Shown here piece after piece: positions 191-45,300 of a stretch of DNA of 64,000 nt. Location: contig NW_024704743.1 of NCBI RefSeq assembly GCF_018977255.1, forward strand, positions 16,432,001 through 16,496,000, given 5' to 3'. This DNA comes from Callorhinchus milii (taxonomy: Eukaryota). The notes beneath the pieces were generated by a model. The model searched no databases, was not told where the DNA came from, and worked only from the letters and a program-made list of their open reading frames with translations. Positions within the stretch are counted from its first letter, which is position 1. Each line of letters opens with the position of its first letter. Both the position numbers and the translations under genes were made by a program.

Positions 191-1200
191 TCTAACCCAC
201 TGATATAGTTTTCTTTTACATTTAACTTTCATTTAACTTTTATCTCATGCTCCCCATGACATTTATCTATATAATGACCAATCTTTTATTGGTGGTTAAG
301 TTGCATCAATCAAGGGCATCTGTGTTCACACACAGCGAATAATAGAGCTGTGTTTACATGTGGCCATAATGGACCCCATTATGAGCTCTTGTGCGATGAG
401 ATTGAGACTATAATAGGATAGTTCATGTACTGTTACCATTGTGCACCAATAGTTTTTTAATTCGCTTATGAAGCAGAGCAAGTCTACAGTGGTGGTGCAT
501 CCATCCTCATTATTATGGCCCTATAGCTTGATGTCTTAGAGGCTGCATCTCTCAGTGGAATGAGACTGGCATCTTTCAAAGCACATTTCATAAATGCACT
601 TGTTTTGATGGACTCTTGGATGAGTTCAGTGCAACCTCATTTGTCCTGGGAAATGGAAGGTGTACAGATAATCCATAAATATATTGCAAATTTGAAAAGG
701 AAACTGTTGTGAAATTCCTTTGTAGAAAAATGAAAAGCAGAGAAATAAAACGCGGAGATGTCGGTCAATATGGTTCAGTTGCAAATATCAGTCAATAGAT
801 GCAAACCGAGTAGTCATGTAACGTATTGATTGAACACATTGCAAATACTATAATCAATGGACTGAACAATCTAGTACAGAGAACTGAGGTTATGTAAATA
901 CAATAGTTGCATGTTTGCATTGTTAAAACGTAAGACCATAGGTAGGTAAAGTCGACCTGTTTTTTTTTCATCAAGGGCTCCGTGCTTACTTCAGTGTCCT
1001 ATGTTTAGAATGACATTGGGCAGATGTGAAGCAAGTTCTCTGTAGCCCTAACCAAAGTTGTAGCTAAGATTTATAAAAGCCTAAGTGGCAAGATTAAAAA
1101 GAGTCTTTCAGTGAAAGATTCAAAACATTTTGTGTTCTCTAACCTCCTTCCTCCCCTCCATAAATGGTGTTGGGAAGACAGGAGGCTGGAGAACCACCAT

Positions 1201-1545
1201 GTGGAGTCCTGTAGTGTATTGATTAGAGTAATCACCTCGCAAGCCGGTGGACCCTGGTTTGATTCGGGCAGGAGAAAACCATAGGCAAGTTTCCTTACTC
1301 CACATGCCTCTGATTAACTAGCAGTAAGTAGGAACCCGGTTGTTAGTCAATTGGCAGATCGCTTAAAAAATAATAATAATTTTGTTACTCAATCCACAAC
1401 TGTTTGTGGGACACTGTTATATGGAATTGGCTGCCGTGCTTCGCCCACAAAATATACAGTCAATCTTCTTTACAGTATATTCTATGAAGCGCTTTGAGAC
1501 ATCTCAACAATGTGATAAGGAGCTATATCAACTGCAAGAATTTTT
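1201..1545 (+). mobile_element. tRNA-derived SINE, long-linker type A, with Deu-like 3' half and L2-like tail
   Basis: gtggagtcctgtag head, ggcaagtttccttactccac, ctagcagtaagtaggaacc linker, ctgtttgtgggacactg core, gcgctttgagac tail. Confidence 0.9.
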
Positions 1546-2127
1546 TTCTTATGAATAGATGCTCATTTGCTCACTCACTAGTCTCAAAAAATATACTTGT
1601 GCATTTAGAAACAGAACAATAAATAGCTAACAAGCAGTTGAAGTGTTGTGCAACTGATGAATAAACTTACATTGAGACCTAATATTCCAGGCAATTGTTT
1701 TGGTGTCATCCTAACACAATTTTCCTGCATGGCTGCATTTTTCCTCTCAGACCTCTCTTGTATTTCTCCCACAGGAAGTCTTGTTGATGTGTTCTTCAGC
1801 TGCCATTTCGATGTGTTTCAGGTGGCAGAAGTTTAAGTGACAATGGTTTCTGAACGATGAGCAATGATGAGCAACAACTAGATAAGATGTGAAAATAAAT
1901 GTCTTAAAGGGAGCTTTGAAGCGATGTATTGTTAACGATATGCAAGATGCTCAGTGAGATCGAAATCAATCCAGAACAGAAATTGTAATAGGAAAGCCAG
2001 ATTTCAAGTGGAATGAGTTTACATGGTGCATATTCAACCCAAGTTTATTTTAAGGAATTCTGGGGTTTTCACATTGGTGAGGATGTGCCTCCTAACCTAA
2101 TGGCTGGGGTGGATCATGGGCTTGCTG

Positions 2128-2496
2128 TATTGGTGCAGTAGAGAGTACTTGTCAGGCTTGGGGGTCAGGCACATTGCAAGTAGTGAAGGCGGAAATGCTG
2201 CATTTCTTTTAATTTTTATTGTAGCTCATCTCAAGGAGCTTGATATTGTCAGCTGTTCAAGCAAAAGGATATTCCTTCCCACAGCAGTCATCAATCACCT
2301 CCTCAATACACAAAACCATTACACAGTAGAGCCATGTGAACAAGGAAGAGTAAGATGTGAACTAGTTGTTCTCAACGTGTATGTATATTTCTTTTGTTAA
2401 ATAAATGCTTCCACCTGTTAAAGCCATGACGATACGAATGTGCTTATTATCACTGATAATCCCAAAGCCTGACAAGTACCATCTACTGCACCAATA
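2128..2496. mobile_element. MER121-like non-autonomous element with about 36-bp inverted repeats
   Basis: tattggtgcagtagagagtacttgtcaggcttgggg at the left pairs with cccaaagcctgacaagtaccatctactgcaccaata at the right. Internal catctcaaggagcttgatattgtcagctg matches my recollection of the MER121 core. Confidence 0.75.
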
Positions 2497-2574
2497 TTCT
2501 TATCACCAATAACTACCAAAGGAGCTAGATTAATTACCATAGGAGCTGGATTAATGGTGAGGGCGTTGGATTAT

Positions 2575-2982
2575 GTGTCAGTTTGGCTCAGTGGTAGCAC
2601 TCTCAATCCTGAGTCAGAAGGTTGTGGGTTCAAGCCCCACGTCTAAAATGACATTCCAATGCAGTGCTGGGCTGTCATCGGAGGCGCCATCCTTTGGATG
2701 AGACATTAAATTGAAGTCCCATCTATCTGTTCAGGTGGACGTTAAAGATCCCATGGCACTATTCAAGAAGAGAAGGGAGTTTCACCTGGTGTCCTGCCCA
2801 ACAATGCTCCAAATAAAATAGGCCACTCATTCTGTGGCTGTTTGTGGTGCATTGCTGTGTGCAAACTGGCTGTCGGGGTTTACCCACAAAATACAGTCAA
2901 TCCACTTTACAGTATATCCTGTGAAGCGTTTTGCAGCCGTGATAAGACACCTTAACAAATGCAAGGATTGTTCTTATTGTTA
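2575..2982 (+). mobile_element. Full-length Deu-domain SINE (SacSINE1/AmnSINE1-related)
   Basis: tRNA-like head (ggctcagtggtagcactctc...ggttcaagccc), Deu core (ggatgagacattaaa...caggtggacgttaaagatcccatggcactatt), L2-type tail. Confidence 0.88.
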
Positions 2983-3261
2983 TGTCGGTGACAGCAACCA
3001 TATAGGCAAAAAATATTCCTGCACAAACCTTAACAGGACCCAGTATGACTTGTGCTTTTTTGGTAAATCCAAGAAATTATAAGTAGCTGGTTTACCACTT
3101 TAATTTCCCTTAGGTGGAATCCTGGCAGACAATCAATAATTCATGATTGTCCTGGGATGAAAGTTCCTAAATAATTGTCATTTTGTTTCTTTTAATAGAG
3201 TAAAACCTGGAAATTAATACTTTTTTAAGCATCTGATTTCTATTTTGTAAAACAACACTAG

Positions 3262-3369
3262 GAGGAAGAAAGTGAAGAGGAGCCAAAGCTAAAGTATGAA
3301 AGACTGGCTAATGGAGTCACAGAAATTTTGAAGAAAGATGCAGCAAGTTGCATGACTGTCCATGATAAG
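3262..3369 (+). CDS. VPS41: VPS41 exon (human exon 3 equivalent), [36 protein letters not shown]
   Basis: tag|GAG acceptor, AAG|gtaact donor, 108 nt. Confidence 0.96.
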
Positions 3370-12300: not shown

Positions 12301-15300
12301 TGAAAAGAGAAGCAAGTTTCTCTCTCTCCCGGTTTCTCTCTCTCCTGGCCAACAATACTCCAAATAAATAAAATTGTTCACTCACTTCATGGCTGTTTGT
12401 GGGATGTTGCTGTGGCATTTGGCTGCCCCAGTTCGCCCACTAAACATGCAGTTACTGTATTATACAGTGTATCCTGTGAAGTGCTTTGGGACATCCTCCT
12501 GGCGTGAAAGGTACTACGCCAAATGCAAGGATTATTATTAAGCCATCACTGCTTTGGGGATCCAGAATTGTCATACAGCACCTGACAGCAGACCTGCCAA
12601 AGTGGTTTAACCACAGCTCTGAATGAATGGTGACTGCAACTGTCTTCAGTGCCTTGGGGCGTCCTCCCGAGGTGCTATATAATTTGTTGTTGTCTTGAAT
12701 ACTTGAGCCCATGTGTACTGTGAGTATCGGGTCTTTTCGACCCATAGCTTCTTAGCAATTTCGTGGTGGTTTATCTTTGAATCGTTCAAAGTAACTCATT
12801 AGAAGAAAGGGGCTAAATCTTTTCCTGTGGAGTATTGCTGTGGATAACATGGTGCAATTTGTTGTGATAATTCTCTTTCCAGCTACCACTCCTTGTTTAG
12901 ATGTGAGCTGAAACCTCTGCAGTGTTGGTAGTATTCAAAGTTCAATGCTCCTCACTTGCTGCATGAGCCCTCGCATCGATTGCATGTTCTCCAGTCTGTG
13001 CTGAGCATTCACACCCCACAGCCATGGACATCTTTCTGGTGTGACAAAACCAGACCCTACAAGGACAAATTCAATAGTTGTTCACACGGACAGGTTCGAT
13101 AGTCGTTTACAAACGTGTTTGAAGATTTTATCATTTAATCAGAATGAACTTGATTCGAATACATTTCATTCTGGAGCAAATGGAGGATGGAAGGTCCTTG
13201 GCCTGTGCACAGGAAACATTTTGTATAACACAGGGGAAACGTCCCACTTGAAAGAGAATTTTTTTATAGCACTTTGTCGTACCAAAATGTCTCCAAGGGT
13301 TTCATGGGCACTTAAGTGTAATGACAGTATTTTGTGGATAAATATGGCAGGTGTTTCCATCAGCAAGGTGAGAGAAACTAACTTTGCTTTTGTGTCCATG
13401 TGAACATGCAGACAGAACCTTATCTGAAGGATGGTGATATTAATAACATTCCTAACATTTGATACAGCATCTTTCATGTCAGGGGGACATCTCAAAGCGC
13501 TTCACAGGATTTGTAAAGTGTAGTAACTGCGTATGTTATAATAATAATCCTTGCATTTGATATAACGCCTTATCATGTCTTCAGTGCTTCACAGAATATA
13601 CTGTCAAGTGAATCAACTCTACTTTGTGGGTGAAATGCGGCAGCCAATTGCGCACAGCAGTGTCCACAAACAGTCTTGATTGAGTGACAAAATAAATTTT
13701 TTTTTTTGGAGGGATTATTACTTCATGTGGAGTAAGGAAACTTGCCCAATGTTTTGCCCTACCAGGAATCGAAACCCAGGTCCTCTCGCTTGCAAGGCGA
13801 GTGCTCTAACCATTAAGCTACAGGATTCCACATATGATATGATATAAGGATTATAGGCAAATGTAGGCCAACACTTTTATAGGAAGGCACCTCTGCCAAC
13901 GCAGTGCTATCCTAGTATTGTACTGGAACATCAGCCTAGACCACAACTTTCTGATCCAGAGATGAGAATGCTGCCAACTGAGCTAAACTAGATTTCAGAA
14001 GTGCAGAAATGTCCATTGTATATTTTAGAATTTCCTTCATTGTCAAACAGACTGTGGTTGACTGATGAAAGAGCTAAAGTAATGTAAATTTCCTTCATTG
14101 ACAGACTGTTCTACCTGATCATGTGTTCTCAGGAATTAAAGTGGCAGCATTATAAATAGATTACCAGTGATGTATGGTAACCATATACTATTCATGTCAT
14201 ATATGATTAAAATTTATGTTGAGTTCAAGCACCATCTGGCAAAACATCTATAAATAAAAACTAAACCCAGTTCTGTTGTCCGTTTGAATATTCTTATATA
14301 TTTTTTTAAAAAATGCAATATATTTAAATGGAGGATGTATGACTGTTGCTAAGTACTGTAGTTTCTAAGTTTGGGATGTACAACACAGTGAGCAATGTTA
14401 TTTATAAGATGGCCGATGAGGCAGGATGTGTGAAAAGGCTAAGCAATTGGGTGGGAAAAGCTGAGTTGTGCCATCAGTTTAGTGGTGTAAAAACCAGCTT
14501 GGGGTCCTTTCTGTGTGTGTGTGTTTGTGGATGTTGGTTGAGGATTGGATCGGGCTAGGCTGTGATGGCTTTTGTTCCACACACAATCAGATAGCTTGCC
14601 AAACACTCACACAAAGCCTTGGGAGATCCCTTTTCATTTGATGGTGATCAGGAAGAGGAACCCTAATTGATATTTTTTTGCACCCTCAAAACCCAAAGAT
14701 GCTAAAGCCATTTCTAGTATCTCCAATACTGCCCCAGGTACCTGTGGATCAAATGCAGGAACTTCCTAATGTATATATAATCAGTGTTTTTGTAAACTAA
14801 AAATAATTTTAGGAGTGCTAGTTTTTGTGGCTTGGGTTTATACTCACTACAATATTTTTTTTCCAGGCTGTGATTGCGATTATTATAAGAACTTGCATTT
14901 AACAGGGCCTTTCACTTGAAATCAACATCTGAAAGTGCTTTACAAGACATAATTGATTAGAGGTTAATTCAATGTTATACAGTAACAATAATTTACATTT
15001 ATACAATGCCTTTCACTTAGGGAGGACATTTCAAAGTGTTTCATACAACTGAATGAGCACCTGAGTTTCTAGAGGGGGAAGCGATGGAGGGGAAGGGAAA
15101 GATGGCAGGAAGCACAGTCAAAGAGATTGGTCTTAAGACGGGCTTTGAAGATGGGTGGGGGGGAGAGAAGAGACAAGGAGAGGGTGCAAAATGGCTGTTA
15201 CCAGTGGTAAGCCAGAACAAGCAGGAGCTTGAAGCAGGCTGCTGTTTGCTGTGCGGAGGGAGTGGCTTACAGAGGAAACAACAACAACAACAACAAGATT

Positions 15301-18300
15301 CCATTTATAAAGCGCCTTTCACGTCAGGAGGACGTCCCAAGGCGCTGCACAGTTGGGTCAGGACCCGAGCAGGGGGGAAATGGTCAGGGTGAGGGGAGGG
15401 AAGGGAGGGAGCGAGGAGGGGGGAAATGGTCAGGGTAAGGGGAGGGAAGGGAGGGAGCGAGGAGGGGGGAAATGGTCAGGGTAAGGGAGGGAAGGGAGGG
15501 AGCGAGGAGGGGGAAGCGAGTCGAGAGGGGAGCTGAAGGCTCGGTCAAAGAGAAAGGTTTTGAGACCGGCCTTGAAGGAGGAAAGGGAGGAAGCGGCGAA
15601 GGCACTGGGGGATGGAGTTCCAGAGCCTGGGGCTGAGAGGCTGAAGGCCCGACCACCGATGGTAGGGCGGTTGGGGCGGGGGACGTGGAGCAGACTGGAG
15701 CCAGAGGAACGGAGGGTACGGGCAGGTAGGTAGGGGGATAGTAGGTTGGAGAGGTAGGAGGGAGCAAGGCCGTGAATGGCCTTGTAGGTGAGGATGAGGA
15801 TCTTGAAATCAATCCTCTGGGGGATGGGGAGCCAGTGGAGGCGAGCGAGGGTGGGAGTGATGTGGTCCCGAAGCCTGGTGCGGGGCAGTACACGAGCTGC
15901 AGAGTTCTGAATGACCTGCAGCTTGTGGAGGGAGGTGGCGGGAAGGCCGACGAGGAGAGAGTTCCCATAGTCCAGCCTTGAGGTGACAAAGGCGTGAACT
16001 AGGGTTTCAGCAGCGTGAGGGGTGAGGTAGTGCCGTAGTCTGGCGATGTTCCGGAAGTTACAGAGGTGGAGCAAGACCTTAGCGGCATTTGAAAATGAGG
16101 ACAAGAATTTTGAATTGTATTCAATGGTGGATGGGGAGCCAAGTGAGAATAGGGGGCAATGGACTCATGGAGCCTTGTGTGGGAGAGATCATGGGCTGTA
16201 GTTCCAGATGGTCTGCAACTTTATTGGGGAATAGTGGGGGAGTCGGGTGAGGGGGGATTGGAATAGTCGAACCTGGAGGTGACGAAGGTGGTAGCCTTGG
16301 AGGAGAGGTAATGGCTGAGGTGAGCGATGTGCAAAGGTGAGGTTGGTGATTGCCCAGATTTAGAGTTTGAAGGGTAGTTGTATGCAACAACAACAACAAG
16401 GTTACATTTGGATAGCGCCGTTCACGTCGGGAGGATGTCCCAAGGCGCTGGACAGAGGACAGCATTTCAGACCCGAGCTGGGGTTGGGGTAGGGGAGGGG
16501 AAGGGGGGTGGCCGATGGCATGGTCGAAGAGGAGGGTCTTGAGGCAGGACTTGAAAGAGGCTAAGGAGGAGCGAGGCGGAGTGATTGGGGGATGGAATTC
16601 CAGAGGTTGGGGGCAGAGTGGCTGAAGGCTCTCCTGCCAGTGGTGGGGCGGGTGGGTTTGGGGACGTGAAGCAGGCCAGAGCCGGCTGAGCGGAGGGAAC
16701 GGGCGGGTTGGTAGGGGGTTAGGAGGTCACAGAGGTAGGGTGAGGCGAGGCCATGGAGGACTTTGTATGTGAGGACCAGGATCTGAAGGGAGCCAGTGGA
16801 GTCGGGCGAAAGTGGGGGAGATGGGGTCATGGAGTTTGGTGCGTGAGAGGACACGGGCTGCAGAGTTTTGGATTATCTGCAGCCTGTGGAGGGAGGAGTT
16901 GGGAAAGCCGACAAACAGGGCATTTGCATAGTCGAGCCTGGAGGTGATGAAGGCATGAACAAGAGTTTCAGCGGCCTGAGGGGTGATGTAGTGGCGGAGT
17001 CGGGCGATGTTACGGAGGTGAAGGAAGGCAGAGCACATTATTAGAGGTGCCGTCCTTCAAGTGAGATGTAAAACAGACATCCCATCTGCCTCTTCATGGA
17101 CATTATAAATCCAATGGCACGATTCAAAAAGATAAGGGAGTTACTCACTGTGTCCTAAGCCAGCAATTCCCCTCCCCCTCAGTAAAATTGATCATCCACT
17201 TCATGGCTGTGTGTTGGTCATTGCTGACTGCTGAGCGCCCATTGTATTTGCCTTCAAGTACAAATATAATTTACAGTAAACGTGGGAAGAGCTTTGAGAC
17301 ATTTTAACAATGTGATAAAGCAGTATATCAGATGCAAGGATTGTTATTGTATATGCAGAGGCTAAATTTGTGCCAACAGATTCACGAGATGAGTGGGCAA
17401 TCCATTGAATTTGGGATGAGAAGGGGAATATAGCCAAGATAACTGAGAGAAACACACTGCCTTTCTTAAGAATATCTACAAGTAGTGGGAGCAGTCCCTT
17501 TATTTTCCACCTGAATCACAAGGCAGATAGAAGCAAAATAGAGAGAATGTAATAATAGAATCAGGTAAGAAAAAAGGCCAGCTGAATTTTTTTTTAAATT
17601 GCAGGGTGCACGCACAGCCAATCTATGCTGGCACTTGTACACCAACTTATTGTGGTTAATAATATATCAGAAGTCTGCTTTGTTAAATATTGGAAAACAT
17701 TCTGAAAATGTTTCCATTGCCTTTATTTTCCCTGCGTCTTTATTACACAAATACGCAGAGAAGCCATCTAATGGATAACTAAATATATGTGAATAAAACA
17801 GCAATCACTGACGTTTTCTACATGATTACTGAATTTCAGAGCTCTGTGAAGGTGAATCAGATAAGCCTGGATGAAAGTGGGGAGCATGTTGGTATCTGTA
17901 CAGAAGACGGCAAGGTAGGAGTTTATAATATACGCTGTATTTTGTTTCATATAATAATTCAGTGCCTACAGTTTATTTTCCAATAATTTTCACTTTGCCA
18001 AGAATCTGTTGCTACATTTTCCTGTGCAGCACTCGGAAACACACATGGAGTGGGGAATCCAGGAAGCTGGTTCTCTTCTCTTAGTATGCTTTCACTTGTG
18101 TTACGAAAGCTTTGATGCATGTTGTAGTATTTATAACTTGCTATCTCTCACTCTGAAGTTTTCAGATGTTTGTTTTATACAAAAAAGTTTAGTGTACAGA
18201 ATTTCAGGAACTTAACTGTACAAAGGACAGGTTGGAGGTACAGTATTTGTAATTTTAGTTAATGTTTGGTTGGGTATCTCTGAAGGCACTCCTATTTTCC

Positions 18301-24300: not shown

Positions 24301-27300
24301 AGTGTTTCAGAAATTGAATAGTTTCAGCGCTGAAACAGAATTGCCTAGAAGGCTACAGCACAGAAATAGACGTTCAGCCCAACGACCATTCAGTCCACAT
24401 GGGTCTTTATACTCCATAGGAGCTTCTACCCCTCGAGTATTAGATCCAGTGGAAGGGAGATTTTGGCATTGACCATAATAATAATAGTCATTAATTTATT
24501 TAGCGAGCTTCACATAGGATAATGTCTCAGAGCACTTGATTTACTGTTATCATTTTGTATCCTTACACTATTGTGCTCAGTAATTCATTTTTGTCAATAT
24601 CCTAGTGATGTCAACATTAATAGTTTTATTTAATATCGATGAAGTGTATTGGTGCTTGAGAATGGAATTCAGTGGAATGCATAATCAAACTTAGCCATTC
24701 TGCATAAAACTATGCTACTGTTAACCACTCAGATGCCATCCTGCATGAAAAGAGCTATATAAATTCAAGTTGTTGATGTTTATGGGTTAGAATTAGCATC
24801 TTGCACTTACACATCAAGGGCTGCATTGTTTAGAACCTTTCTCTCTGTTCCAATAACATCCCTTATCTCCAACTTCAGCGATGATATCATCCTCCCTTTG
24901 TTAGCACCAAAGTGATTTTTTCTAATTTCAGCCATCTCACCTCTGCCCACAGTGTGATTGGCATTTAATAGTTGTTTTACTACTGTGGACTCAACATTGG
25001 TAAAAACTGAGCCATTATTGTCTGAACACGTTTGTGCAAGATGCTTATAGAGCACATTTGGGTTTGTGTCCAACATAGGTGACACCACACTTTACCTTCA
25101 ACAGAAGGTCAACAGTTAATGGTTCATTTTATAACCGCTTGATTCTTTCGAAAAGAAAAGACTTTAGCATGTTTACTGCATGAGAATTTGATCGATGAAC
25201 AGTATTTCGTGAACATTTCTCTTGCTTTCTCCCCATCCCTATTTGCATGTTTCTCCCTATGCCAGGTGCCGTGCATGACTGACTGAGTGAAAGTAAATGT
25301 GTTGGTTAAGCCTTCCAGGTTTGCCTGTCTTCCTGTGGATATTGGGAGCTCATTGTGGATTGTGGACATGTGGAGTCCTGTGGCTCAGTGGTTAGAGTAC
25401 TCGCCTTGCAAGTGAGACACCTGGGTTCAATTCCAGGCAGGGTGAAACCTTGGGCAAGTTTCCTTACTCCACACGCCTAATAATAATCCCTCCAAAACAA
25501 AACAATAATAAAATTGGTCATTTTCAATCCACGACTGTTTGTGGGACACTGCTGTGCGCAATTGGCTGCCGCGCTTCACCCACAAATATACGGTCAATTC
25601 ACTTTACAGCATATTCTGTGAAGCGTTTTGAGATGTCGAGAAGATGTGAAAAGCTCTATCAAATGCAAGGATTATTATATTGGAAGGGCAATCCCGGGGA
25701 GAGAGAGAGGGGAGGAAGGGACATGTTCAACGTTCAATGCTGTGCCCCCAAGGCGAGTCAGAGGTTATCGATTTTCAATTTTGTGAAAAGCTGAAAGTCT
25801 ATTCAAGCAGAGCTAATTTGCAACCACTATGTAGTAGTAGAAAACAGTTATAATTCAATGATTAATTCCAGAAAATTGTGTAAGCATCAATCTCCTCCTA
25901 TGAGTTATGTAACAGTAATTGGGCATGTAGGCGGATTCCAGTCACTTTCCTCACCATTCTTCTCATTGGAAGCAAAGCAAAGGTCCTATATGCAGTATTT
26001 GTCTTACCTGATTTTCTTAATAACAAATTCCAAGTTGTGCAAACAGGGACTCTTCCCTTTACACAGATGAAAATCATGGTGCCCTGTGGGGAATAAGGTC
26101 TACTTTCAACAACAGTTTGCATTTATACAATATAAGTGCTTATAACACAAGGTAGAGTTTCTGAGCACTTCCCAAGTGGAGGTCCCATGTGTTAGTGTGA
26201 ATTCCTGTTAAAACCACCTCAAATCAGACCTCAGCTTTGCTTCTGAATGCATCCAATGAGGGGGGGGGACCTTTTTTGTTTTCAGTCCACATGATCTATT
26301 AGGAGGAAATCTGTGCAGATCAACAAAGTTCTTGATCTATAAAGGCTTGTTCCATTCTGCGTTCCACTCAACCACTTTAGTGAAAGTTCCATTGGATGGC
26401 ATTTTTTTTTCCACTCGCTCGTTTCCCCATTCTGTCCCTATTCAAAATTTGGTAATGTGGCAAGTGCATAGCAGAGGTGGAGCAAAGCTCAGATCTGCGA
26501 ATAAAGGTACTGATCATTTGAAACCCGTCACTACCTTACTCTATAGAACGGATCTGATGCAGGAGCTCATCCATTTGCCGTGCATCTTTTCTCCACTAAC
26601 CTGAAGGTGCACAGGAGTTCAAGCACAGTGCATCAATTATTTATCATCCAGAATTGGACAGATGCAACAAAAAATGATAGGGTATGAAGAGCGAGGAGGA
26701 GAGTGCGGTTAATCGAGGTGGCTCATGCTGAGGGAAGACAATAGCAGACTTGTTGAGCTGATTATCCTATTTCTGTACCTGGCATTCCATGACTGCAGGG
26801 GGAGCTGTGTAAATAAGATTCAAAGAAATAAACCCCATGAACATTTATTTACTCTGACATTATGTTAATTCTAAAAGGGATGAAAAGTGCTGACTGTTAC
26901 TTCTGACGTTTGAAAGGTCAATAGAGCACAACGTCATATACTTGTGCCCATCTGTTTCACTATCTAAGCTTTTTTTTCTGCACTTTGCTACCTTTTGGAA
27001 ATCTCTGACAGATTTTGTGAGTATCACAACTTGGATCTCAACAAGTTCCCCTTGAAATGATTCGGCAGCTGTGTGTATCATTGTGCATAACTTCGCTGAT
27101 TTGTTTTGTTATATTTTATTTCAGATAGTGGCTCTGAACCCGCAGTTTGGTAGATCCAGCAGCAAGCAGTTCATCACAGGAGGGAACAAGGTAAGCTTGA
27201 CACACCTTTCTCCCATTCCACTCAACTATCAGAAACTGAGCACCAGAATTACAACAGTAGTTACAATAATCCATGCATTTGATTTGACAACTGCCTGACA

Positions 27301-30300
27301 CAAAAGGAGCCGCCTCAATCCTTGTTCGTAATGCACATTTGACGGAAGTTTAAAGACGGTATTAGACGTGCAGTCCATTCATTGGCATAAAATTTGTACC
27401 TACCACTATGAACACCATTAGCATACAGATGTTGTTGCTTAATTTTAAGGCTTTTATTCAGGAACATTCAACCCATCGAGGCCATTTTACAGATCATGAC
27501 ATTATCTTTCTACTCAAATTTCCTCGCTTTTTCTTCATATTAGTGCTTCCAAATATCTTTGAACAGCTTTGGGTTTGTGGATGTCAGCTCTGTAAAGCTT
27601 TATTATACTGCCCTCCTCTGTTTGTTATTTATGCTGTTTTGGCACCAACTTTTTTCCTATTCGGTCAAGCGTCATGGCCTGATAAGGAATAGAGGACTCA
27701 AATGAGCAACACGTGTGCTGAAAACGAATGGATTTACAGCCACTGTAATCCTGGAAGAACCATTCAAATGACTGCTGATTTACAAAAAACAATGTCGAAA
27801 AGGCAGTTGGAAAGTAGAAGTGAACACATACAAAACAATTTTAATTTTAAATTGTTGAAACGTCACATTTAAAGCGATGGTGATATCTGCAGACATGTAG
27901 TTATTATGCCTCTTTTCTATTATGCAAATGTATCTCTACTCGTATATGGATCAAGGGTTAATTTTACACAGGTGCTTCACAACTGAGATGCATAGAAGTG
28001 CTGCAGAATTGCATTTTGAATTGTATTTGAATTGTATGATAGAAATTGTAGGAGTCCTGTAGCTCGGTGGTTAGAGCGCTTGCTTCGCAAACGAGAGACC
28101 TGGGTTCGATTCCTGGCAGGGCAAAACCTTGTGCAAGTTTCCTGACTCCACACGTCTGAGACGTATCTCCACACGTCTGATAAGTTTCCTTACTCCACAC
28201 GTCTTTCTTTTCGACCGTGTCTTTGGTCACCTTCCCCCCCCTCCCGCTGACTCGGCCCCGGGATCCGTTACTGTGAAGCGCTCTGAGACACCGTCCGGCA
28301 TGGAGGGCGCTATATAAATCCAAGTTGTTGTTGTTGATAATAATCCCTCAAGAGAAAAAAATAAATAATAAATTGGTCACTTCAATCCACGACTGTTTGT
28401 GGGTCACTGCTGAGCACAATTGGCTGCCACGTTTCGCCCACAAATATATAGTGAATTCAGCTTACAGTATATTCTGTGAAGCGCTTTGAGAGGTCTAGAA
28501 AATGTGGAAAGCATTATATCAAATGCAAGGATTTTTTTTTATCTTGACTCGTGTTTGCCTTTGATTCTCTCATTCCCCCCTTTTCTCTAAGTTGCAATTG
28601 TATGAACGGAATTGGCTGAGCCGATGGAAAACCTCTACATTACATGAAGGAGAAGGCTCGATAACCAATGTCAAATGGAGAGGAAACCTGATTGCGTGGT
28701 CGAACAGTGTGGTAATTAACTCCAATCACTCCTGAACATGGATCAAAACAAAGTGAACAATTCAATTCAGGAATATATTTTGAATAATCTTTAGGCAGGT
28801 GTTACTGTGCAGGTAGAAGATAGCCATTTGCACTCGTCAGGAGAAAAATCTTTTGCACAAACAAGTACCTATTTTGGCACGGGAAGAGATTCCCTGTAAG
28901 GACAAAAGGCCGATGCCTGTGTGGATGCAGCTATATTCTTGTATGATTCTATCTGTCGCTCTGTGTTCCCCTGACTTGCCTTTCTGAACTGGTTTATTTG
29001 GAGGGAAATGAATGGGTCATTCTGTAAAATAAATCCCAACTGGTTGTTTTGTGAATATCGCAAGTTCGTCACAATTATTGTTTCCCATCCTTTTGTGAAT
29101 GTCACAGCTTAGACTGGGAAGGGTTAATGCATCTCATTGTTTGTTCTCCTCTGTGCATTCCTTTGTTCCGAGGAAGCATATGTCCTGAGGTTTTACTGTA
29201 ATGTCTGTACGGACATACATTTAAGAAATAGGTACAAATATCGGGCAAATACTTCATGTGTCCATTATTCAAAACAATCGTTAATATTGTGACTTGAAGG
29301 CGAACGTTTCTTTAATATGAAGTACTTGGCCCCTTGGGTCCACAGCATTGGCGGGTGTGAGCAAAGCAACATGTTGGTGTCTGCTTTAAAATAAGTTACC
29401 TCTGCCCTTGTTGGCCTGTAAATGTACAAACTGTATGACTTGGAGCTCAGTGACCATTTTTTAAAATCTGAAACGTCAGGCTGTAGGGTACTGGTGCACT
29501 GCTGTCCAGAAAATGTTTGTCTTTGTACAACGAGGTCCTCTTATAATATACTTCAGCCTAAGCACAAATTTGCTTGTAATGCGGGTGCATTGTGGAATCC
29601 AGTGCATTGAATATGACCCCACTCGCTTCCTGAGCACCTACTCACTTTTGATGCCAAAATGGCTAACGTCCATTAAGTTGCTATCGACATCACTTCCTGC
29701 TTTGCTATGCATGCGCAAAGCAGGACATGATGTTCGTGGCGGCTGAATGATCCGAAAGTCGACGATTTCAGCTTCCCGCACTGAAAAAAACAGCTTCCAA
29801 GTCATCAAGTCATCACCAACAGTGCTTCGCACATGCGCACAAAACAGGAAATGGCATTAAGATGACTTGGAAAGTGACCATTTCTTCTTAACACAGATCT
29901 GGCCATTTCTACAATAACATGGGTGGAGATATTACAGATCCCAAACTCAGGGCTGCAAATTAAGTTATCACTTGTTTAAAAAAATTAAAATTGTGAAATG
30001 CAACGAGGTTAGATGCTTCACATTACAGTCGTTTCTTCCCCACAGAATCTCCCTTTACTGTTGACTTGCTTTCTTCATTTGATTCTCTCTCACGCCATTC
30101 AAGTACATTCTACTTTCTTCAGGGAGTGAAAATATACGACACCAGCTCAAAGCAGCGAATCACAACCGTGGCTCGAGACAATACAAGCCTCCGTCCTGAC
30201 ATGTATCTCTGCAGCCTGTGCTGGAAGGACAATGTGACGCTCATTATTGGCTGGGGAACATCTGTTAAGGTACAGATCACTCAATAAGGATGACAAGGGT

Positions 30301-33300: not shown

Positions 33301-36300
33301 GGTTACTGTAAATGTAAAATGACACTGCAGCGTTTGTTGTAATGGGCCTTTTCAAAAAGATCCTAAAATGTCAGAGCATGTGACAGCAAGAAGTCATGTA
33401 CACAAGTGAGCAAACTGAATGCTGAGCAGTTTAATTTATAGCAAGAATATCTCCCTGATGTGTTGTAGCGGTTCTTCTGCAAGAGCCGAGGCGCCACAAG
33501 TCTGAGCAGTGTTGGCGTGAATTAATTGTGATGGTCTCAGTGGTGAAGGGGTTTATTTTGTGGACGTACGGTTCCTGGTGGAGTATTAAGTGCATCTTTA
33601 AATATAATTCGTCTCTATTCAGTGTGCTCCACGCATTGCAGAAATAAGATGAGGATGTCATCTGGGAGAATCACATTGCATTTAAGATGCTTGATGTCAT
33701 GGCTGTGCCAAAAAAAACCTTAACATGTGTGGGTGCTGCTCTGGACTAATACACTGTTCAGTTCATTGTTACCATCAGCATTGTCATTTCTAGGTTTAAG
33801 CTGGTCTCTTCAGTAATGTTTTTCTTCTCTAAAGTTACTTTCAATGTGTCAGTTTACTTTTTTTTAGCAAAAATATAAACTGCTAAACTTGTTTGGCCCC
33901 AGTGACCATAAACATTGTGTAAAAGTGCATTCGAGCGCGAGTTACTGTGAGCAATACTTGAGATGCCTCCATCCAACCATGACTTGACTGTCATGGCTTT
34001 GTGCTCGCACCTGCTAGGACTGACTACAAAAATGAGAAACTTTCCCTTCTGTATCCTTCCCATTTCGTGGCATTGTGGCTCATCTAACAGTACTCTTTAC
34101 TTCTGCATCAAAAGGTTTTGAGTTCAAGCCCCAAGTCAGGACTGGAGTTGAGGTTGATACTCCATTGTATAGGTTGGTCATTCATCTCATGGCTGTTTGT
34201 GGTACCTTACTGTGTGCAAAATGAATACGTGTTTGCCTATCTCCACAGCCATTACATTCAATAGTAATTATTGTAAACCTTTGAGATATTTTGACATTAG
34301 GTTAAAAATACAAATTTTCTTTTTTGAAAAAGAAGGGGAATCCCCTCTGTTCCTTCCCTTTCAAACCTTTACATTCTTTGGAATTTAAGTTAGAAGTCTT
34401 GAGTTCCAAGTGCATTATAGGCCAAACAGCCATTGAGATATTTTTGGTATAATTAGCTGTCAGCAGTTGGTAGCACTTTCACCACTGAGTCAGAAGGTTG
34501 TCGGTTCAAGCCCTCCGTTGGGGCCTGGAACTCATACAGTCTAAGCTGGTATTCCAGTGCAGTATTGTGGACTGAGATGTTAAATGGAGGTCCTGTCTAT
34601 TCAGATGGATGTGAAAGCTCACATGGCACTATTTGAAAAGAGAAGTGATTTTTGTGGAGTCCTGTAGCTCAGTGGTTAGAGCACTCGCTTTGCAAGTGAG
34701 AGACCTGAGTTCAATTCCAGGCAGAGGGTGAAACCTTGGGCAAGTTTCCTTACTCCACACGCCTAATAATAATCCCTCCAAAACCAAAAACAATAATAAA
34801 TTGGTCATTTTCAATCTACGACTGTTTGTGGGACATTGCTGTGCGCAATTGGCTGCCGCGTTCGCCCACAAAAAATATACAGTCAATTCACTTTACAGTG
34901 TGTTCTGTGAAGCGCTTTGGGACGTCCTCCCGATGTGGAAAGCGCTATATCAAATGCAAGGATTATTATTATTATTAGAAGTGATTTTTTTCCTGATGTT
35001 CTGGCCAACATCCCCGCAAAGCAAATTGGTTATTCACTTCACGGCTGTTTTGGGGACTTTGCTGCGTGCAATTTAGTTACGCCGTTCGGCCACACAAACA
35101 CACAGTCGTAGATTGAGTGACCAAATTATTATTTTATTTGTTTTTTTTTTGAAGCGAAAGTAATAATTTGGTCACTCAATCCACGATTGTTTGTGGGGCA
35201 CTGCTGTGTGCAATTAGCTGCCACATTTTGCCAACAAAATATACAGTCTATTCACTTTACAGTATATTCTGTGAAGCGCTTTGAGACCTTTTGAAGACAT
35301 GATAAGGCGCAAGGATTATTATTGAAATGCAAGGATTATTATTGTTATCCGCCAATTGACTACCAAGTTCCCACTTACTGTTAGGTCAACAAAGAGATGT
35401 GGAGTAACCCAGGCCCTCTCTTTTGCTAGGTGAGCACGCTAAGCACTACACTACTGGTGTAGAAGATACTCATTTAACCCAAGAGGAAGATCCTGAAGGG
35501 TTGGAAGGCTGTGTATATCTGTTAATTATATTGCCATTGTGTGGCATATTTGTACTGCAGACAACTGTAAAACTGCTGTGAAATTTTCTATTTACAAACT
35601 GTAAACACAAAAGCTTCCTAAATGCGACATAATTTACAGTGGTAGGAACTCACCAAATTGAAGTTACTACTTCTGATCCTGCTGAAAGACACTACTGAAG
35701 GGGATTTGTGTCAATTGCTTTTCAGAATTGCAAACGTGAAGGGTGAAGTTGCAGTGCCCTCTACAGGAAATGTGTTGGAAGAAGTGTAAATTGTGCTCTA
35801 GTCCAGTTCAAATAGGTTTTGACTTACTTTACAGAGGAACTGTCAATAATCATAATAAATAACAATAATAATCCTTGAATTTGATAGAGTGCATAATAAT
35901 AATAATATTTTGTGGCATTTCTTATAACATCATTGAGATGTTTCAAAACTCTACCCAGAATATACTAATAATATCCTGTAAGATGAATTGACTGTATATT
36001 TTGTGGGCAAAGGTCGGCAGCCAATTGCACACAGCAGTGTCCCACAAATAGTCTTGGATTGAGTGACAAATTATTATTATTTTTAAAGGGATTATTTACA
36101 CTTGCAAAGCGATCCGCCAATCGACTAACAACTGGATTCCTACTTACTGCTAGGTAAACGGAGGTGTGTGTAGTAAGGAAACTGCCTATGGTTTTGCCCT
36201 GCCTGGGAATTGAACCCGGGTCCTCTTGCTTGCAAAGCGAGTGCTTTAACCACTACCCTCCAGGACTACTGTAATTCTTCTTCCAGCAGTACCAAAACAG

Positions 36301-39300: not shown

Positions 39301-42300
39301 TTTGCCCTAATTTACAGCCCATGTCATCCTGATTGATCCACCAAGGGGAAAAATCATTCAATGTTTTTGTCAAACCCTTTCATAATTCTAAATACTTTGA
39401 TCAAATCAATCATCCTTGGCTCTACAGATTAATTTCCAACCTGTCCAGCCTTTCATTATAGATTAGCAACTCCCCCCCACCCCCCACCATGCCCCCACTA
39501 TATGATTTCTATGAACCTACAATGCATTCTCTCCAAAGTCAAATTTCTGTCATAAGGTGCACAAAACTGCACACCCAGGTTTTCTAACACGGTTAATTGT
39601 AATTTTTGAAATTTGTGTCCCTGTTTTGGATTTCTCGACCAGAGGGAAAAGTTGATAGCTGTCTAAGTGGTCAATTCCCTTTATTATTAATTGCCTTAGA
39701 AGTCTAAAATGCAACAATTTCCAATGGGATTCCTTATTTAAGGACACTGGAATCGTTAAATAAACAGCTTGATGCTATGATGAGAGGACAACAGGGAGGG
39801 CTATTCTGGAAGGATGAGATCAAAGGACCTTCTTCATCCAAACCTCTCTTGATCTTGTGGGTACAATGCACCAAAAGTGGAGTTTGCAAGTGGAAATCCC
39901 TTGAGCCTGAGTGATGTGCATCCACATCCACTTTAATTATGGAATTCCATTTGACATCAGTGTGTTTTAGCCTCCAATGTGCTACCGTCTCAACGAACGT
40001 AAATTATTTAAAATAAATGGAAAAGACTTATTGAACCTGGAGTGTTATGTGGCAGGCTTGAAAGACATGAGGTTTATATTTAGTGATTATGAATAATTGA
40101 AAACCAAAATGGAAATGTGTTTCTATAATATAATGTTCAGATGAATTGTAAAGTAGGTGAAGGGTTGGCCCTGTGGTTTTTAAAAGAATATAATACATTC
40201 TTCAGAGTGATTCCTCATATGAACCCTAACTGATTATTGGGATGGTAGTTTTTTTGGTGCACATCATATAACTTTATAAATTTTGCACAGATTTACAGTG
40301 AGTTGAATTTACTGTAAATGTAGTTTGTTTTGGGGCAACCCATAATTTAAGCATGTTTTTCTGGATATTTTATAGTTTACATTTTATAGGCATTTAAGCA
40401 TACAGAAAATGCCTCAGATTTCTGGACATGGATAACCTTTGTATTTGAACTCTGGCAAAACGTACTAGCAAATATTTCAACTTCTAATTCTCTGAAACCT
40501 TTCTGTTCATACCTAACTCTGTCTGAGCCAGCGTTTCTCACAAAGATGATGAGTTGTGTCCTCTTGCAGCTCCAAGGTATAAGAATGACCAATCTCACAA
40601 AATTCCAGTCTCATTCACTTCATATATCTTCATTGTGTTTTGGCACATTGCATACACTTAGAGCTTATTGCCCACAAAATACACTGTCACTGCACTTTAT
40701 AGTAAATTAGTGAAGCGTTTGAAACATCCTCTGCCTCTGCGACCTCCTAACCCCAAATCTGCCTGTCCGCTCCCTCCACTCGACGGACACCGGCCTACTT
40801 CAGGCCCCCCGCACTTCCTGCCCTACTGCCAGTCGGGCATTCAGCATCTCTTCCCCCATACGCTGGGATTCTATCCCGCAATCCCTCTGCCTCACCCCCT
40901 CTCTTGCCCCTTCAAGTCCCGTCTGTCATGTTTTACCTACAAATAATAATAATAATCCTTGCATTTGATATAGTCCCTGATCATGTTGTTGAGACGTCTC
41001 AAAGCACTTCACTGCAAAGGGAATTGACTGTATATTTTATGGGCGAAACACAGCAGCCAATTGTGCACAGCAATGTCCCACATACAGTCGTGTTTAATAT
41101 AATACAATAATTAAATACAGTCACGTAACCTCACAGTAATTTCTTGTGAGATGTTTCGATGTGATGATTCACAGTAAAAATGCAAATTTTACTTTCTGGT
41201 TCCAAATAAACTTGGATTTGGGCCTCAGTGTAAAGCAGACTATTTACGAAATGAAAAATGACCTTCTTACTCTTGATGCAGAGCACTCTGAGGGCGAGTC
41301 GCTGTTTTATATCATCAGTCCGAAGGACATTGTTGTCGCCAAGGAACGGGATCAAGATGACCACATTGAGTGGCTACTTGGAAAAAAGAAGTATGAAGTA
41401 GGTATCCTTCTCTTACACTCTCTTTGTATGTTAATGTTGTAAAGCTTTTGTTTTGGGGAAATCTACAGATTTCTTTATCTTGTTTTTAGGAGGCTATGAT
41501 GGCTGCTGAAATCAGTCAGAAGAATATAAAAAGGCACAACATGCTGGTGAGTAAGAATGCATGCTGGTGGCATTATGGTGGAATCTTGATTTCATTCTCT
41601 TCCTTGATTATCCACCGAATACTGGTATTTTAGGATTTCGGGATGGGAGTTTATCAGAGTGGACAATAGCAGTGGAGATCTGTTTTTCATTGCATACTCG
41701 ATTTAAATATTAAGAATAACGTATATTGAGAGAGAAAATCTCTGGTGGATTGAGCTAGAGGACTTGGAAGTTATACTTGTAACTACAGTTGAAACCCGGT
41801 TTGCGGTCACCTCACAACCACCTCACAATTGCGGGCACATTTTCACAGTACAAACACCCCCCTACTACTAACCTGTACAGTACACAGTGCGCTAGGCCTC
41901 GGGCTTCTCGCGCTGTTTCCTCAGCTCTGCTACTGCGGGTGCAGTGGGCTCTGGTTGCGCATGCGCCACGCAGGGAGTGTTGGGATTCTGGAAGCGGCGC
42001 AAACGGAAAATCAACTTCGCCCGGTGCCTGTGGCCTAACCTGAGCTCCTGTAGCCAATTCTTGGTAAGTGCTGTAAACATGCCACCATGGAAGGAGTTGT
42101 CCTTACGTGAGAGAGTGGACTTAACCAAAAACAGTGGGAAAAAGTCAGACCGTTAGCTGTGATCTATGGCATTGGCAGAACATAAGTTGGATGCATTCTT
42201 AAAAGGATGGCTGAATATATGACAGCTTTTGTTTTATGTGTGACAGTGCCTTTATTTTAATGAGATTGCAAAGTACGGTTGTTGAACATTCATCACACTT

Positions 42301-45300
42301 ACAGGGTGAAATCTTGGGAAAGTTTCCTTACTCCACACCCCTGATAATAATCCTTCAAAAAAAAAACAATAATAATTTGATCACTTCAATCCACGACTGT
42401 TTTTGGCACACTGCTGTGTGTTGGCTGCTGCGTTTCGCCCACAAAAATGTGGTCAATTCACTTTACAGTATATTCTGTGAAGCGCTTTGAGACGTCTCGA
42501 AGATGTGAAAAGCGCTATATCAAATTCAAGGATTATTATTTTTATTATTGTTGCCCGTTACCAACGCCCTTAACATTACCAATGCCCTTAACATTACCTC
42601 AGTATATAACCCGACCTGTTATAGTAATCAGGTCACCTCACTCTTTAGGTCCCTTTTACCCAGTCACTTGAGTGACCGGTTAGTGAGGTTCTACTGTACT
42701 TTAAAATCCCAAAGTCTTCATGCTTCTCTGTGTGTGCGTATGAGTGTGTGTACTTCCAAAGTATTAACACTCGGGTCTGATTATGTTTAGAGTAAGATTT
42801 TTTCAAAGATAATGACCAAGTTCTTCTGCACCTCGAATTGAACGAATCATTTGAGTTTCCCTGAAACTCACTCCGATTTGTTAAAAGATACAATACAAAT
42901 TTGCATTAATATAGCAACAACAACAACAAAATTACATTTGTATAGCGCCTTTCACGTAGGGAGGACGTCACAAGGCGCTGGATAGATAGAGTTATGGACC
43001 CGAGCTGGGAGTTGGGGTGGGGGAGAGTGGAGGGCCTGGAAAGTAGGGAGATCAAAAGCATGGTCAAAGAGGAGGGTCTTGAGATGGGTCTTGAAGGTGG
43101 CAAGCGAGGAGGCGAGGTGGAGGGATTGCGGGATGTAGTTCCAGAAGGTGGGGCCAGAGCTGCTGAAGGCCCGCCCGCCACTAGTGGGACTAGCAAGGCA
43201 GGGGGATGTGAAACAGGCAGGAGTCCGTTGAGCGGAGGGAGCGGGCAGGTTGGTAGGGGGTTAGGAGGTCGCAGAGGTAGTGGGGAGCAAGGCTTTGGAG
43301 GGCTTTGAAGGTGAGGACCAGGATCTTGAACTGTATCCTCTGTGTGATGGGAAGCCAGTGGAGTTGGGCAAGGATGGAGGTGATAGGGTCGCGGATCCTG
43401 GTGCAGGAGAGGCCACGGGCTGCAGAGTTCTGGATGATCTGCAGCCCGTGGAAGGAGAAGTTGGGGAGGCCGACAAGCAGTTAGTTTGCATAGTCGAGCC
43501 TCGATGTAATGAAAACGTATATGAGGGTTTTGGCAGCCTGCGGTGTGAGACTGTGGCGGAGCTGGGCGACATTGCAAGAGGTGGGGGAAGGGAAAGCGGG
43601 TCATGGCACAGATGTGCGGTAGAAAGGATAGTTGAGGATCGAACAAGACCCCAAGGTTCTGGACTGACTTAGTGAGGTGAAGTGTGCATCTGTGGATGGT
43701 GATGTTATCAGCGCCTGAGGTGTGGAGGCGCTGACGGGAGCCAATCAGGAGAGCCTCGGTCTTGTTGACGTTCAACTGAAGAAAGTTAGTTCTCATCCAG
43801 GACTTGACGTCTGACAGACATTCTGTCAGGTCAGCAGTGGTCCTGGAGTCAAGGGTGGAGGCATAGAGGTAGGGTGTCATATAGGGTGTCATCCACATAC
43901 ATGTTTGTGTTTGTGGATGATGCCACCAAGAGGGAGCATATAGATACTGAAGAGGAGGGGACCAAGGACGGAGCCCTGAGCACACTGCACGAGACGGTCC
44001 GGGGACTAGAGGAGAAGCCGTTTGTGGAGATGGTGTGCAGGCGGTGTGAGAGGTATGATCTGAACCAGTCAATGACAAAGCCGTGAAAGGTTGAGGTGAG
44101 AGGAGAGTTGGTGGATGAGGATAGAGTGGTTGACGGTGTCGAAGGCAGCAGAGAGGTCAAGGAGGACAGGAGGCAGAGGGAGCCCTGGTCGCAGATGGAC
44201 AGAATGTTATTTGTCACTTTGAATATGGCTGTTTCTGTGCTGTGGGCGGCACGGAAACGTGATGGGAGGGGTTCAAGAAGGGAGTGGCGGGAGAGGAAGG
44301 TGCAAAGCTGAGAAGCAACAACTCATTCCAGGACCTTGGATAAGAAAGAGAGGTTGGAGATGGGGCGGTAGTTATGGAATAGAGAAGGGTCCAAAGGAGG
44401 GCTTTTTAAAGAATAGGAGCGATGACAGCAGTTTTTAATGGGGTGGGAACAGTGCCAGAGGACAAGGAGAGGTTTACTATGTCAGTGAGTAGAGCGGCAA
44501 GGAGGTGAACTGAGAGTTAAGGAGAGGGGTAGGAATGGCGTCAAGGGGGCAGGTGGTCGGTTTCATACGGGTTATGGCAGTGATGAGAGAGGAGGTGAAT
44601 ACAGGTTCAAAGGTGTGGAGGGAGGGATGGGTAGGGGCTGGGGTGGGATGAGGAGATGGGGAGGGGGTAGCAGATGCAGAGGTAGCTGAGTGGATTCCCT
44701 TGACTTTGGATTCGAGGAAGTCCAGCATCGCCTCGCAGTTGGCATTTGAGGTGAGGATGGGCGAGGCGTAAGAGGGTGGCCGGAGGAGCCAGTTCGTGAT
44801 GGAGAGGAGGAGCCTGGGGTTGTCCTTAGCCTCCAAGATTGCCTTTGAGTAGAACGACGATTTAGCGGAGGCGAGGGTGGAGTGGTAGGACTTGATATGG
44901 TCCAACCAGATCTGCCGATGGACCATTAGGTTAGATTTAAGCCAGGTGCGCTCAGCGGAACGCGCCTGTGCTTTAAGGGAGCGGAGATGGCTGGTGTACC
45001 TTTCATGCTGGGAGGATGTCCCAAGATCAACGACTCTTTCTTGTTGGTAAACCTCTGAAACTGTTTATCTGGAGAAGCTAGTGGGGGAAATCATCAGAAC
45101 AGCAGATCTGAACTACAGAACGGGATTGAGAGATCTGCATCATTATTTTCAGTATTATTAAGAAAATGTACAATTTTGCAATTGTTTTCTGTTTTGCATT
45201 TGACTTTTTTACCATCTACTTTTAAAGTAATAATCCTTTCATTTGACATTGCATCTTTTAAGTCAGTAGGAATAAAGAGCTTCACAGGATATACTGTAAA

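What the first reader, a model, noticed from the sequence alone, without database searches (positions are those of the whole stretch)
2128..2496. MER121-like palindromic element in a probable cartilaginous-fish intron
Seen: about 36-bp inverted repeats (roughly 33/36 matching) bracket a 370-bp element. Recalled: the blocks cttgtcaggctt(t)ggg, catttctttaatttttatt, catctcaaggagcttgatattgtcagctg, ggatatt.cttccc and tgcttattatcactga...atcccaaagcctgacaag occur in this order in MER121, an ancient repeat described from mammals with unusually strong conservation and unclear origin. Inference: a relative in this lineage would push the family toward the gnathostome ancestor or indicate horizontal transfer. 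The outer arms differ from the mammalian ends as I recall them, so this may be a sister family.
Basis: partly seen in the sequence, partly recalled or inferred. Interest (0 to 1): 0.72.

Follow-up and report, generated by a model that had tools for sequence, protein, structure and literature searches.

The report
Inverted repeat in elephant-shark VPS41 intron
A real 36-base inverted repeat sits in an intron of the elephant shark VPS41 gene, but two related species lack one arm and no other copies turned up, so it is more likely a local DNA-copying scar than a transposon; the proposed link to the mammalian repeat MER121 could not be tested.

Summary
The repeat is real: arms 2128-2163 and 2461-2496, 33 of 36 complementary, against a best of 27 in 200 shuffles. 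The host is Callorhinchus milii VPS41. No second copy was found in the window, and no paralogous contig at 80% likeness or more was laid in four runs of three species (no positive control). Two other species, about 12% diverged, hold the orthologous left arm and most of the spacer, but have 5 letters where the window has 63 (2445-2507, the whole right arm). The region is no better conserved than its flank, the spacer does not fold, and only TA could serve as a target-site duplication. Best reading (0.55): a fold-back, repair-type inverted duplication in the Callorhinchus line. Rivals: an old non-autonomous DNA transposon whose right end the relatives deleted, either MER121-related (0.25) or not (0.15). 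Polarity is unresolved without an outgroup. MER121 membership is untested, because no MER121 sequence or model was reachable; its Dfam model is 401 nt, Repbase lists it as hAT, and it is reported absent in chicken. The scan had noted no look-alike before. One nhmmer run against Dfam would settle it.

The parts
2128..2163 (+). Left arm of the inverted repeat. Covered in organisms B and C, which carry the right arm's letters at 2143, 2144 and in the T run after 2157.
   Evidence: (tables 3, 4, 8)
2164..2460 (+). Spacer: unstructured, single-copy in the window, about 12% diverged in organisms B and C over 2111-2422.
2169..2175 (+). 7-mer complementary to 2437-2443; candidate priming site for fold-back copying (7 of 7 in the window, 5 of 7 in B and C).
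   Evidence: table 3 (2171 and 2173 differ)
2437..2443 (+). Partner 7-mer, shared with B and C, just before the window-only segment.
   Evidence: table 5c
2445..2507 (+). 63-nt segment present in organism A (window, run X4, run X5). Organisms B and C have 5 other letters here.
   Evidence: tables 5, 5c, 8; alignment of the 23 bridging letters done by eye
2446..2460 (+). Perfect 7-bp snap-back hairpin with a 1-nt loop, inside the window-only segment.
   Evidence: a hairpin of this kind in 12 of 2558 25-nt bins of the window
2461..2496 (-). Right arm of the inverted repeat; absent in organisms B and C.
2504..2511 (+). Direct repeat of the last 8 nt of the right arm (2489-2496). Its last 4 nt fall in the stretch that aligns again with B and C; candidate exit microhomology.
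   Evidence: (family D6)
2510..2555 (+). Tandem repeat, period 21, 2.2 copies. The 5 letters seen in B and C equal part of this unit (2547-2551).
   Evidence: table 5c
2571..2985 (+). Neighbouring SINE-like repeat with many copies in the window; not part of the finding; end approximate.
   Evidence: tRNA-like heads at six other places in the window
3262..3369 (+). Next VPS41 exon, residues 20-55 of the C. milii protein.

Best explanation
The right arm is a local inverted copy of ordinary intron DNA, made in the Callorhinchus line after it split from organisms B and C by fold-back (template-switch) synthesis during repair or replication. Proposed steps, all inferred: (1) a 3' end at about 2444 folded back and paired 2437-2443 with 2169-2175 on its own strand; (2) a polymerase copied leftwards to 2128, giving the inverted arm; (3) short slips and re-priming added the snap-back at 2446-2460 and the repeat at 2497-2511; (4) the end rejoined the native strand through a 4-nt microhomology at 2508-2511, replacing 5 nt by 63. 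The left arm then took three changes. The pre-mRNA could form a 36-bp stem about 765 nt before the next splice acceptor, but nothing suggests a function. Shown: the repeat, the species difference, the junction motifs and the flank-like divergence. Inferred: the direction of change and the mechanism.
For: In runs X10 and X11 (organisms B and C) one contig each joins 2422 to 2508 (tables 5, 5c, 8). By eye, 18 of the 23 bridging letters align to 2427-2444 (15 of 18 for X10), which leaves 63 versus 5 nt. A 63-nt segment placed at random in 1678-2559 covers a whole arm in 56 of 820 positions (6.8%). No paralog: none in the window, and only 1, 2, 2 and 1 contigs were laid in the four runs, all of them this locus. 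No target-site duplication of 3-10 nt at any of 12 end positions tried; only 2-nt matches. Junction motifs against backgrounds from the window: 7-nt complement 109 of 5000; 8-mer recurring within 20 nt 122 of 63949; 7-bp snap-back 12 of 2558. Divergence of 2111-2422 is 39 of 312 against 35 of 328 in the flank, Fisher p 0.54. Fold-back and reiterative templated inserts are described for polymerase theta (PMC5068794, passages). The elephant shark is poor in DNA transposons (PMC4350176, passages).
Against: There is no outgroup, so the direction is not shown. The B/C junction reads equally well as a deletion with a 5-nt insert templated from the tandem unit nearby, a common outcome in PMC5068794. 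In that paper most inserts are under 25 bp and map within 20 bp of the junction; a 36-nt copy from 300 nt away is not the common class. 27 of the 63 nt are not a direct copy of the left arm and need extra steps. The priming 7-mer is only 5 of 7 in B and C. The junction motifs were picked after looking, so their backgrounds overstate the evidence. Size (369 nt), 36-nt arms and TA at both ends (TA frequency 6.3%) fit a MITE. The paralog search had no positive control, used contigs, and silently drops human-like records; copies under 80% alike would be missed. That the right arm keeps the B/C letters fits both this reading and a transposon.
Confidence: 0.55

Rival explanations
1. It is an old non-autonomous DNA transposon related to mammalian MER121 (a sister family, or a horizontal transfer), inserted before the split of A from B and C. 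A partner transposase bound the 36-nt ends and cut and pasted it; it is now dead, and the B/C ancestor lost the right end by a deletion with a templated 5-nt insert. A variant: only the left arm and spacer are MER121-like and the right arm is a later fold-back copy.
For: The Dfam 1.2 MER121 model is 401 nt against 369 here (PMC4229909, passage). MER121 is classed as a non-autonomous DNA transposon (PMC5753468 table 5). The left arm and spacer are shared with two species about 12% diverged, so they are old. If B and C are other chimaera families (inferred from contig totals of 0.94-1.05 Gb and alignable intron), that means about 170 Ma or more (PMC11521621, passages). One HOX13-like motif and others occur in the spacer (motifs recalled, chosen after the fact, weak).
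Against: No MER121 sequence was compared. Repbase lists MER121 as hAT, yet no 8-bp duplication flanks this copy. MER121 is listed as absent in chicken (PMC3500645 supplement). It has 757 to 1025 human copies, 471 of 757 in conserved regions, whereas here no second copy and no excess conservation were seen. It needs a deletion in B/C that ends within 16 nt of both ends of one arm.
Confidence: 0.25
2. It is a relic of a holocephalan MITE unrelated to MER121, with TA target duplication (Tc1/mariner-like), of low copy number or old enough that other copies are under 80% alike; B and C deleted the right end.
For: MITE-like size and arm length, TA at both ends. With gaps the arms align further inward, to about 2175 and 2437. 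The B/C junction fits a repair deletion.
Against: No second copy. Arms that differ at 3 of 36 suggest an age at which sister copies should still be about 80-90% alike (inference). The same coincidence of the deletion with one arm is needed. The host genome is poor in DNA transposons.
Confidence: 0.15
3. It is a functional, selected element: an intronic RNA stem that affects VPS41 splicing or editing, or a conserved enhancer.
For: A 36-bp stem can form. The arms still match at 33 of 36.
Against: The stem cannot form in B and C. Substitution rate equals the flank. The spacer is unstructured. No Rfam match. No exon lies between the arms.
Confidence: 0.05

Closest known systems
Templated (fold-back and reiterative) insertions of polymerase theta-mediated end joining; PMC5068794, passages read
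   Same: Short replaced segment, inverted copy of nearby sequence, microhomology at the junctions, overlapping repeated pieces.
   Different: The template here is about 300 nt away and 36 nt long; most described inserts are under 25 bp and come from within 20 bp. Those data are from mutagenised C. elegans.
MER121 (Repbase hAT list, PMC5753468 section 9; Dfam 1.2 model of 401 nt, PMC4229909)
   Different: MER121 is a family of about 750-1000 constrained copies in human and is listed as absent in chicken. This is, as far as seen, single-copy, unconstrained, without an 8-bp duplication, and in a holocephalan.
MITEs and other non-autonomous DNA transposons (general knowledge)
   Same: A few hundred bases, terminal inverted repeats, a possible TA duplication.
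   Different: No second copy, no empty site and no partner transposase were found; one arm is confined to one of the three species seen.

Membership tests
MER121 | Significant sequence match to the MER121 consensus or profile | not testable with these tools
   No Dfam or Repbase here; Kamal 2006 not held; no window 16-mer in paper texts; supplements of PMC5753468 unavailable.
MER121 | Length about 400 nt | tested here: inconclusive
   369 nt against 401: close but unspecific.
MER121 | Dispersed family of hundreds of copies | tested here: inconclusive
   0 further copies in 64 kb; 0 paralogous contigs at 80% or more among the 6 records laid from 4 runs; no positive control and no whole genome.
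MER121 | Copies more conserved at orthologous sites than neutral flanks | tested here: not met
   39 of 312 against 35 of 328, p 0.54; one species pair, and the flank itself may be mildly conserved.
hAT non-autonomous element (Repbase class of MER121) | 8-bp target-site duplication (recalled) | tested here: not met
   Best 8-nt flank match 5 of 8 over 12 end positions; 2 of 8 at the outer ends. Decay with age is possible.
MITE / non-autonomous DNA transposon | Terminal inverted repeats | tested here: met
   33 of 36 in organism A; the right arm is absent in B and C.
MITE / non-autonomous DNA transposon | Target-site duplication | tested here: inconclusive
   Only TA or AT, which are part of the inverted repeat itself.
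MITE / non-autonomous DNA transposon | Empty orthologous site in a relative | tested here: not met
   B and C hold the left arm and spacer; neither shows an empty site.
Fold-back templated insertion | Inverted copy of nearby unique DNA confined to one lineage | tested here: inconclusive
   Present in A, absent in B and C; direction not polarised.
Fold-back templated insertion | Microhomology at the entry and exit junctions | tested here: inconclusive
   7 nt at entry in the window (5 of 7 in B and C), 4 nt at exit; picked after the fact.

The most novel reading that the evidence does not exclude
The stretch, at least its left arm and spacer, is a true relative of MER121 that was already in the ancestor of Callorhinchus and other chimaeras. 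A repeat family thought to be mammalian, exapted as developmental enhancers and absent from chicken, would then have a holocephalan counterpart with long terminal inverted repeats. That would reveal its transposon ends, and point either to horizontal transfer between early mammal and chimaera lineages or to an origin in the jawed-vertebrate ancestor.
Probability: 0.25. Interest if true: 0.7.

Novelty: new member of a known kind. Interest (0 to 1): 0.3.

Why it matters
On the best reading it is an ordinary mutational scar and matters little. It would matter if the MER121 link held. MER121 is a textbook case of a constrained ancient repeat of unclear origin, tied to limb and mesodermal enhancers (PMC3757057, PMC4158753, PMC6904449; passages) and listed as absent in chicken (PMC3500645 supplement). 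A slowly evolving chimaera copy would give its ends, its superfamily and a date. The test takes seconds with Dfam.

Tried and rejected
No whole genome was held, so no genome-wide copy count. Exact-pattern scans: 22-mer in viral contigs, 0 hits; 17-mer in metagenomes, 54 loci; 15-mer in viral contigs, 99 loci; 18-mer in prokaryote genomes, 35 loci. None extended beyond the seed: best nhmmer E 0.5 for the spacer alone over 153 loci, and best E 0.046 for the whole element over 35 loci. Distant blastn on plasmids and phages gave 1 and 2 records with short chance matches. The stop-free frame 2140-2397 (86 aa) was searched to catch other copies mis-called as genes: none at E up to 1 among near lengths, none at E up to 10 among longer proteins, and two hits among 1.84 billion representatives, both tandem-repeat proteins with weak single matches. 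Only this one of six frames was searched. The frame is broken by indels in B and C and is rejected as coding. Rfam: nothing at the gathering threshold in the element, and two hits at E 6.9 and 8.6. PDB search with the first exon found nothing. No RNA holder was listed; run X5, guessed to be RNA, covers 1600-1925 and 2197-2570, and its gap proves nothing. My idea that X5's share of 0.46 marked an empty-site allele was wrong. I considered ends at CAG/CTG (2136-2488) with an 8-bp duplication; the flanks there are inverted, not direct. A first estimate that all 33 outer arm bases are identical between B/C and the right arm (probability 1-3%) is withdrawn: table 3 shows 40 of 110 rows and appears to omit rows near piece ends, so 2128-2140 is not shown for B and C. 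Literature: 24 papers name MER121; I read the MER121 passages of 8 and none mentions fish copies. brought up no paper on MER121 in sharks or chimaeras (listings only, except PMC5753468, PMC9004415, PMC4350176 and the two papers already read); two searches gave no usable sequence source. Dfam, Repbase and unseen supplements may already annotate the family.

Full report
Observation. None of 200 dinucleotide shuffles of 1500-3200 came near it (best 27). The whole folds with z -6.0 as DNA, but the spacer alone does not (RNA z +0.86), so it is a pair of arms and not a palindrome throughout. Most longer inverted repeats in the window lie in repeat copies; this one does not.

Host. Exon 30123-30269 is identical to Callorhinchus milii VPS41; the next best of the 120 listed hits is 88%. 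tblastn maps residues 20-661 across the window, starting at 3262, and residues 8-20 were not found upstream. The repeat therefore lies in the intron before that exon, about 765 nt from its acceptor, with a SINE-like repeat between.

Copies. There is no second copy in the window (blastn word 7 and nhmmer). No whole genome was held. I laid 4 of the 24 listed runs on 1600-2570 at 80% likeness: 1, 2, 2 and 1 contigs were laid, all belonging to this locus. A young family is unlikely. An old one is not excluded: there was no positive control, contigs drop variants, and human-like records are removed silently. Scans of viral, metagenome, prokaryote, plasmid and phage collections gave only chance hits, which is expected for vertebrate DNA and says little. 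Protein searches with the one long frame found nothing real.

Orthologs. Runs X10 and X11 (organisms B and C) hold the same locus. X10 differs at 35 of 328 sites in the flank and 39 of 312 in 2111-2422 (p 0.54); X11 differs at 94 of 745 over 1678-2422. So there is no sign of extra constraint. Both join 2422 to 2508 with 23 letters between (tables 5 and 5c). By eye, 18 of these align to 2427-2444 (15 of 18 for X10), and the last 5 equal part of the 21-nt tandem unit at 2510-2555. The real difference is 63 nt in the window (2445-2507) against 5 nt, and it holds the whole right arm. In B and C the left arm has the right arm's letters at 2143, 2144 and in the T run, so the window's left arm is the changed one; they also differ at 2160. 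Table 3 shows 40 of 110 rows, so 2128-2140 cannot be read for them. B and C are coded; that they are other chimaeras is my inference from contig totals and alignability. If so, the shared part is about 170 Ma old or older (crown age 173 Ma from morphology; PMC11521621, passages).

Which way did the change go? Reading 1, a gain in Callorhinchus by fold-back copying. The species difference ends 16 nt inside and 11 nt outside the arm; a random 63-nt segment would cover a whole arm in 56 of 820 placements. 2437-2443 is the exact complement of 2169-2175, just inside the left arm (background 109 of 5000). The arm's last 8 nt recur at 2504-2511 (122 of 63949), and the last 4 of these fall in the stretch shared with B and C. 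A perfect 7-bp snap-back sits at 2446-2460 (12 of 2558; all). Reiterative and fold-back templated inserts of this kind are described for polymerase theta (PMC5068794, passages). No copies and no target duplication are then expected, and none were seen. Unchecked notes of this scan describe similar local inverted copies in this genome; they raised my prior but are not evidence.

Reading 2, an old transposon that lost its right end in B and C. Size, arm length and TA at both ends fit a MITE. With gaps, the arms align further inward. The B/C junction is itself a plausible repair deletion with a short templated insert. Against reading 1 also stand these points: the priming 7-mer is only 5 of 7 in B and C; 27 of the 63 nt need extra steps; long and distant templates are not the common class in PMC5068794; and my junction tests were chosen after looking. 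Without an outgroup the direction is not shown. I put 0.55 on reading 1 and 0.40 on a transposon origin of all or part of the stretch; before the junction analysis I had given the transposon 0.75.

MER121. Kamal et al. 2006 is not held, and I know it only through citing passages and recall. The supplements of PMC5753468 were unavailable, and four window 16-mers occur in no held text. What papers give: Repbase lists MER121 among hAT elements (PMC5753468 section 9); the Dfam 1.2 model is 401 nt (PMC4229909, passage); it is listed as absent in chicken, with 471 of 757 copies in conserved regions (PMC3500645 supplement rows); it shows signs of selection and developmental enhancer activity (passages of PMC2689173, PMC4158753, PMC3757057, PMC6904449, PMC3649963 and bioRxiv 2024.03.11.584453). 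Here the length is close, but an 8-bp duplication, excess conservation and copy number were not met or not shown. These failures lower 'it is a MER121 copy' less than it may seem, since an unexapted old copy in another lineage need not be constrained.

Print status. One search found 24 papers naming MER121; the MER121 passages of 8 were read and none mentions fish copies. Searches showed no paper on MER121 in cartilaginous fishes; PMC9004415, which covers C. milii, does not name it. Dfam, Repbase, subscription papers and unseen supplements may still hold such an annotation. This scan had no look-alike stretch and no finding naming MER121.

Verdict. A real inverted repeat, most likely a neutral local duplication scar and otherwise a dead non-autonomous transposon: a new member of a known kind, interest 0.3. 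The remaining value lies in the untested MER121 link (probability 0.25, interest 0.7 if true), which one Dfam search and one genome-wide search would decide.

Noticed in passing
window 46002-46052: Hairpin with 23-nt arms, 96% complementary, 5-nt loop, ending about 67 nt before the VPS41 exon at 46120; it could lie near the branch point.
   Followed up: no
window 29671-29749: Hairpin with 35-nt arms, 74% complementary, 9-nt loop, about 370 nt before the exon at 30123.
   Followed up: no
window 58301-58369: AT-rich hairpin with 33-nt arms, 73% complementary, 3-nt loop; may be low complexity.
   Followed up: no
window 1636-1963: Intron stretch about 89% identical in organism B (35 differences in 328); it holds pyrimidine tracts ending in AG at about 1740-1775, a possible cryptic acceptor.
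   Followed up: no
window 14000-18000 and 42000-49500: Purine-skewed blocks with broken reading frames that look like L2 LINE 3' regions (label recalled, not searched).
   Followed up: partly
window 1198-1554, 2571-2985, 25363-25681, 34651-34980, 54049-54429, 61071-61404 and others: Many copies of at least two SINE-like families sharing a 3' part; six tRNA-like heads pass the Rfam tRNA threshold. Most of the longest inverted repeats in the window lie in such copies.
   Followed up: partly
window 19447: The single N of the window; possibly an assembly gap.
   Followed up: no
window 2101-2400: Stop-free frame of 99 codons across the left arm and spacer; no homolog found, and broken by indels in organisms B and C.
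   Followed up: yes
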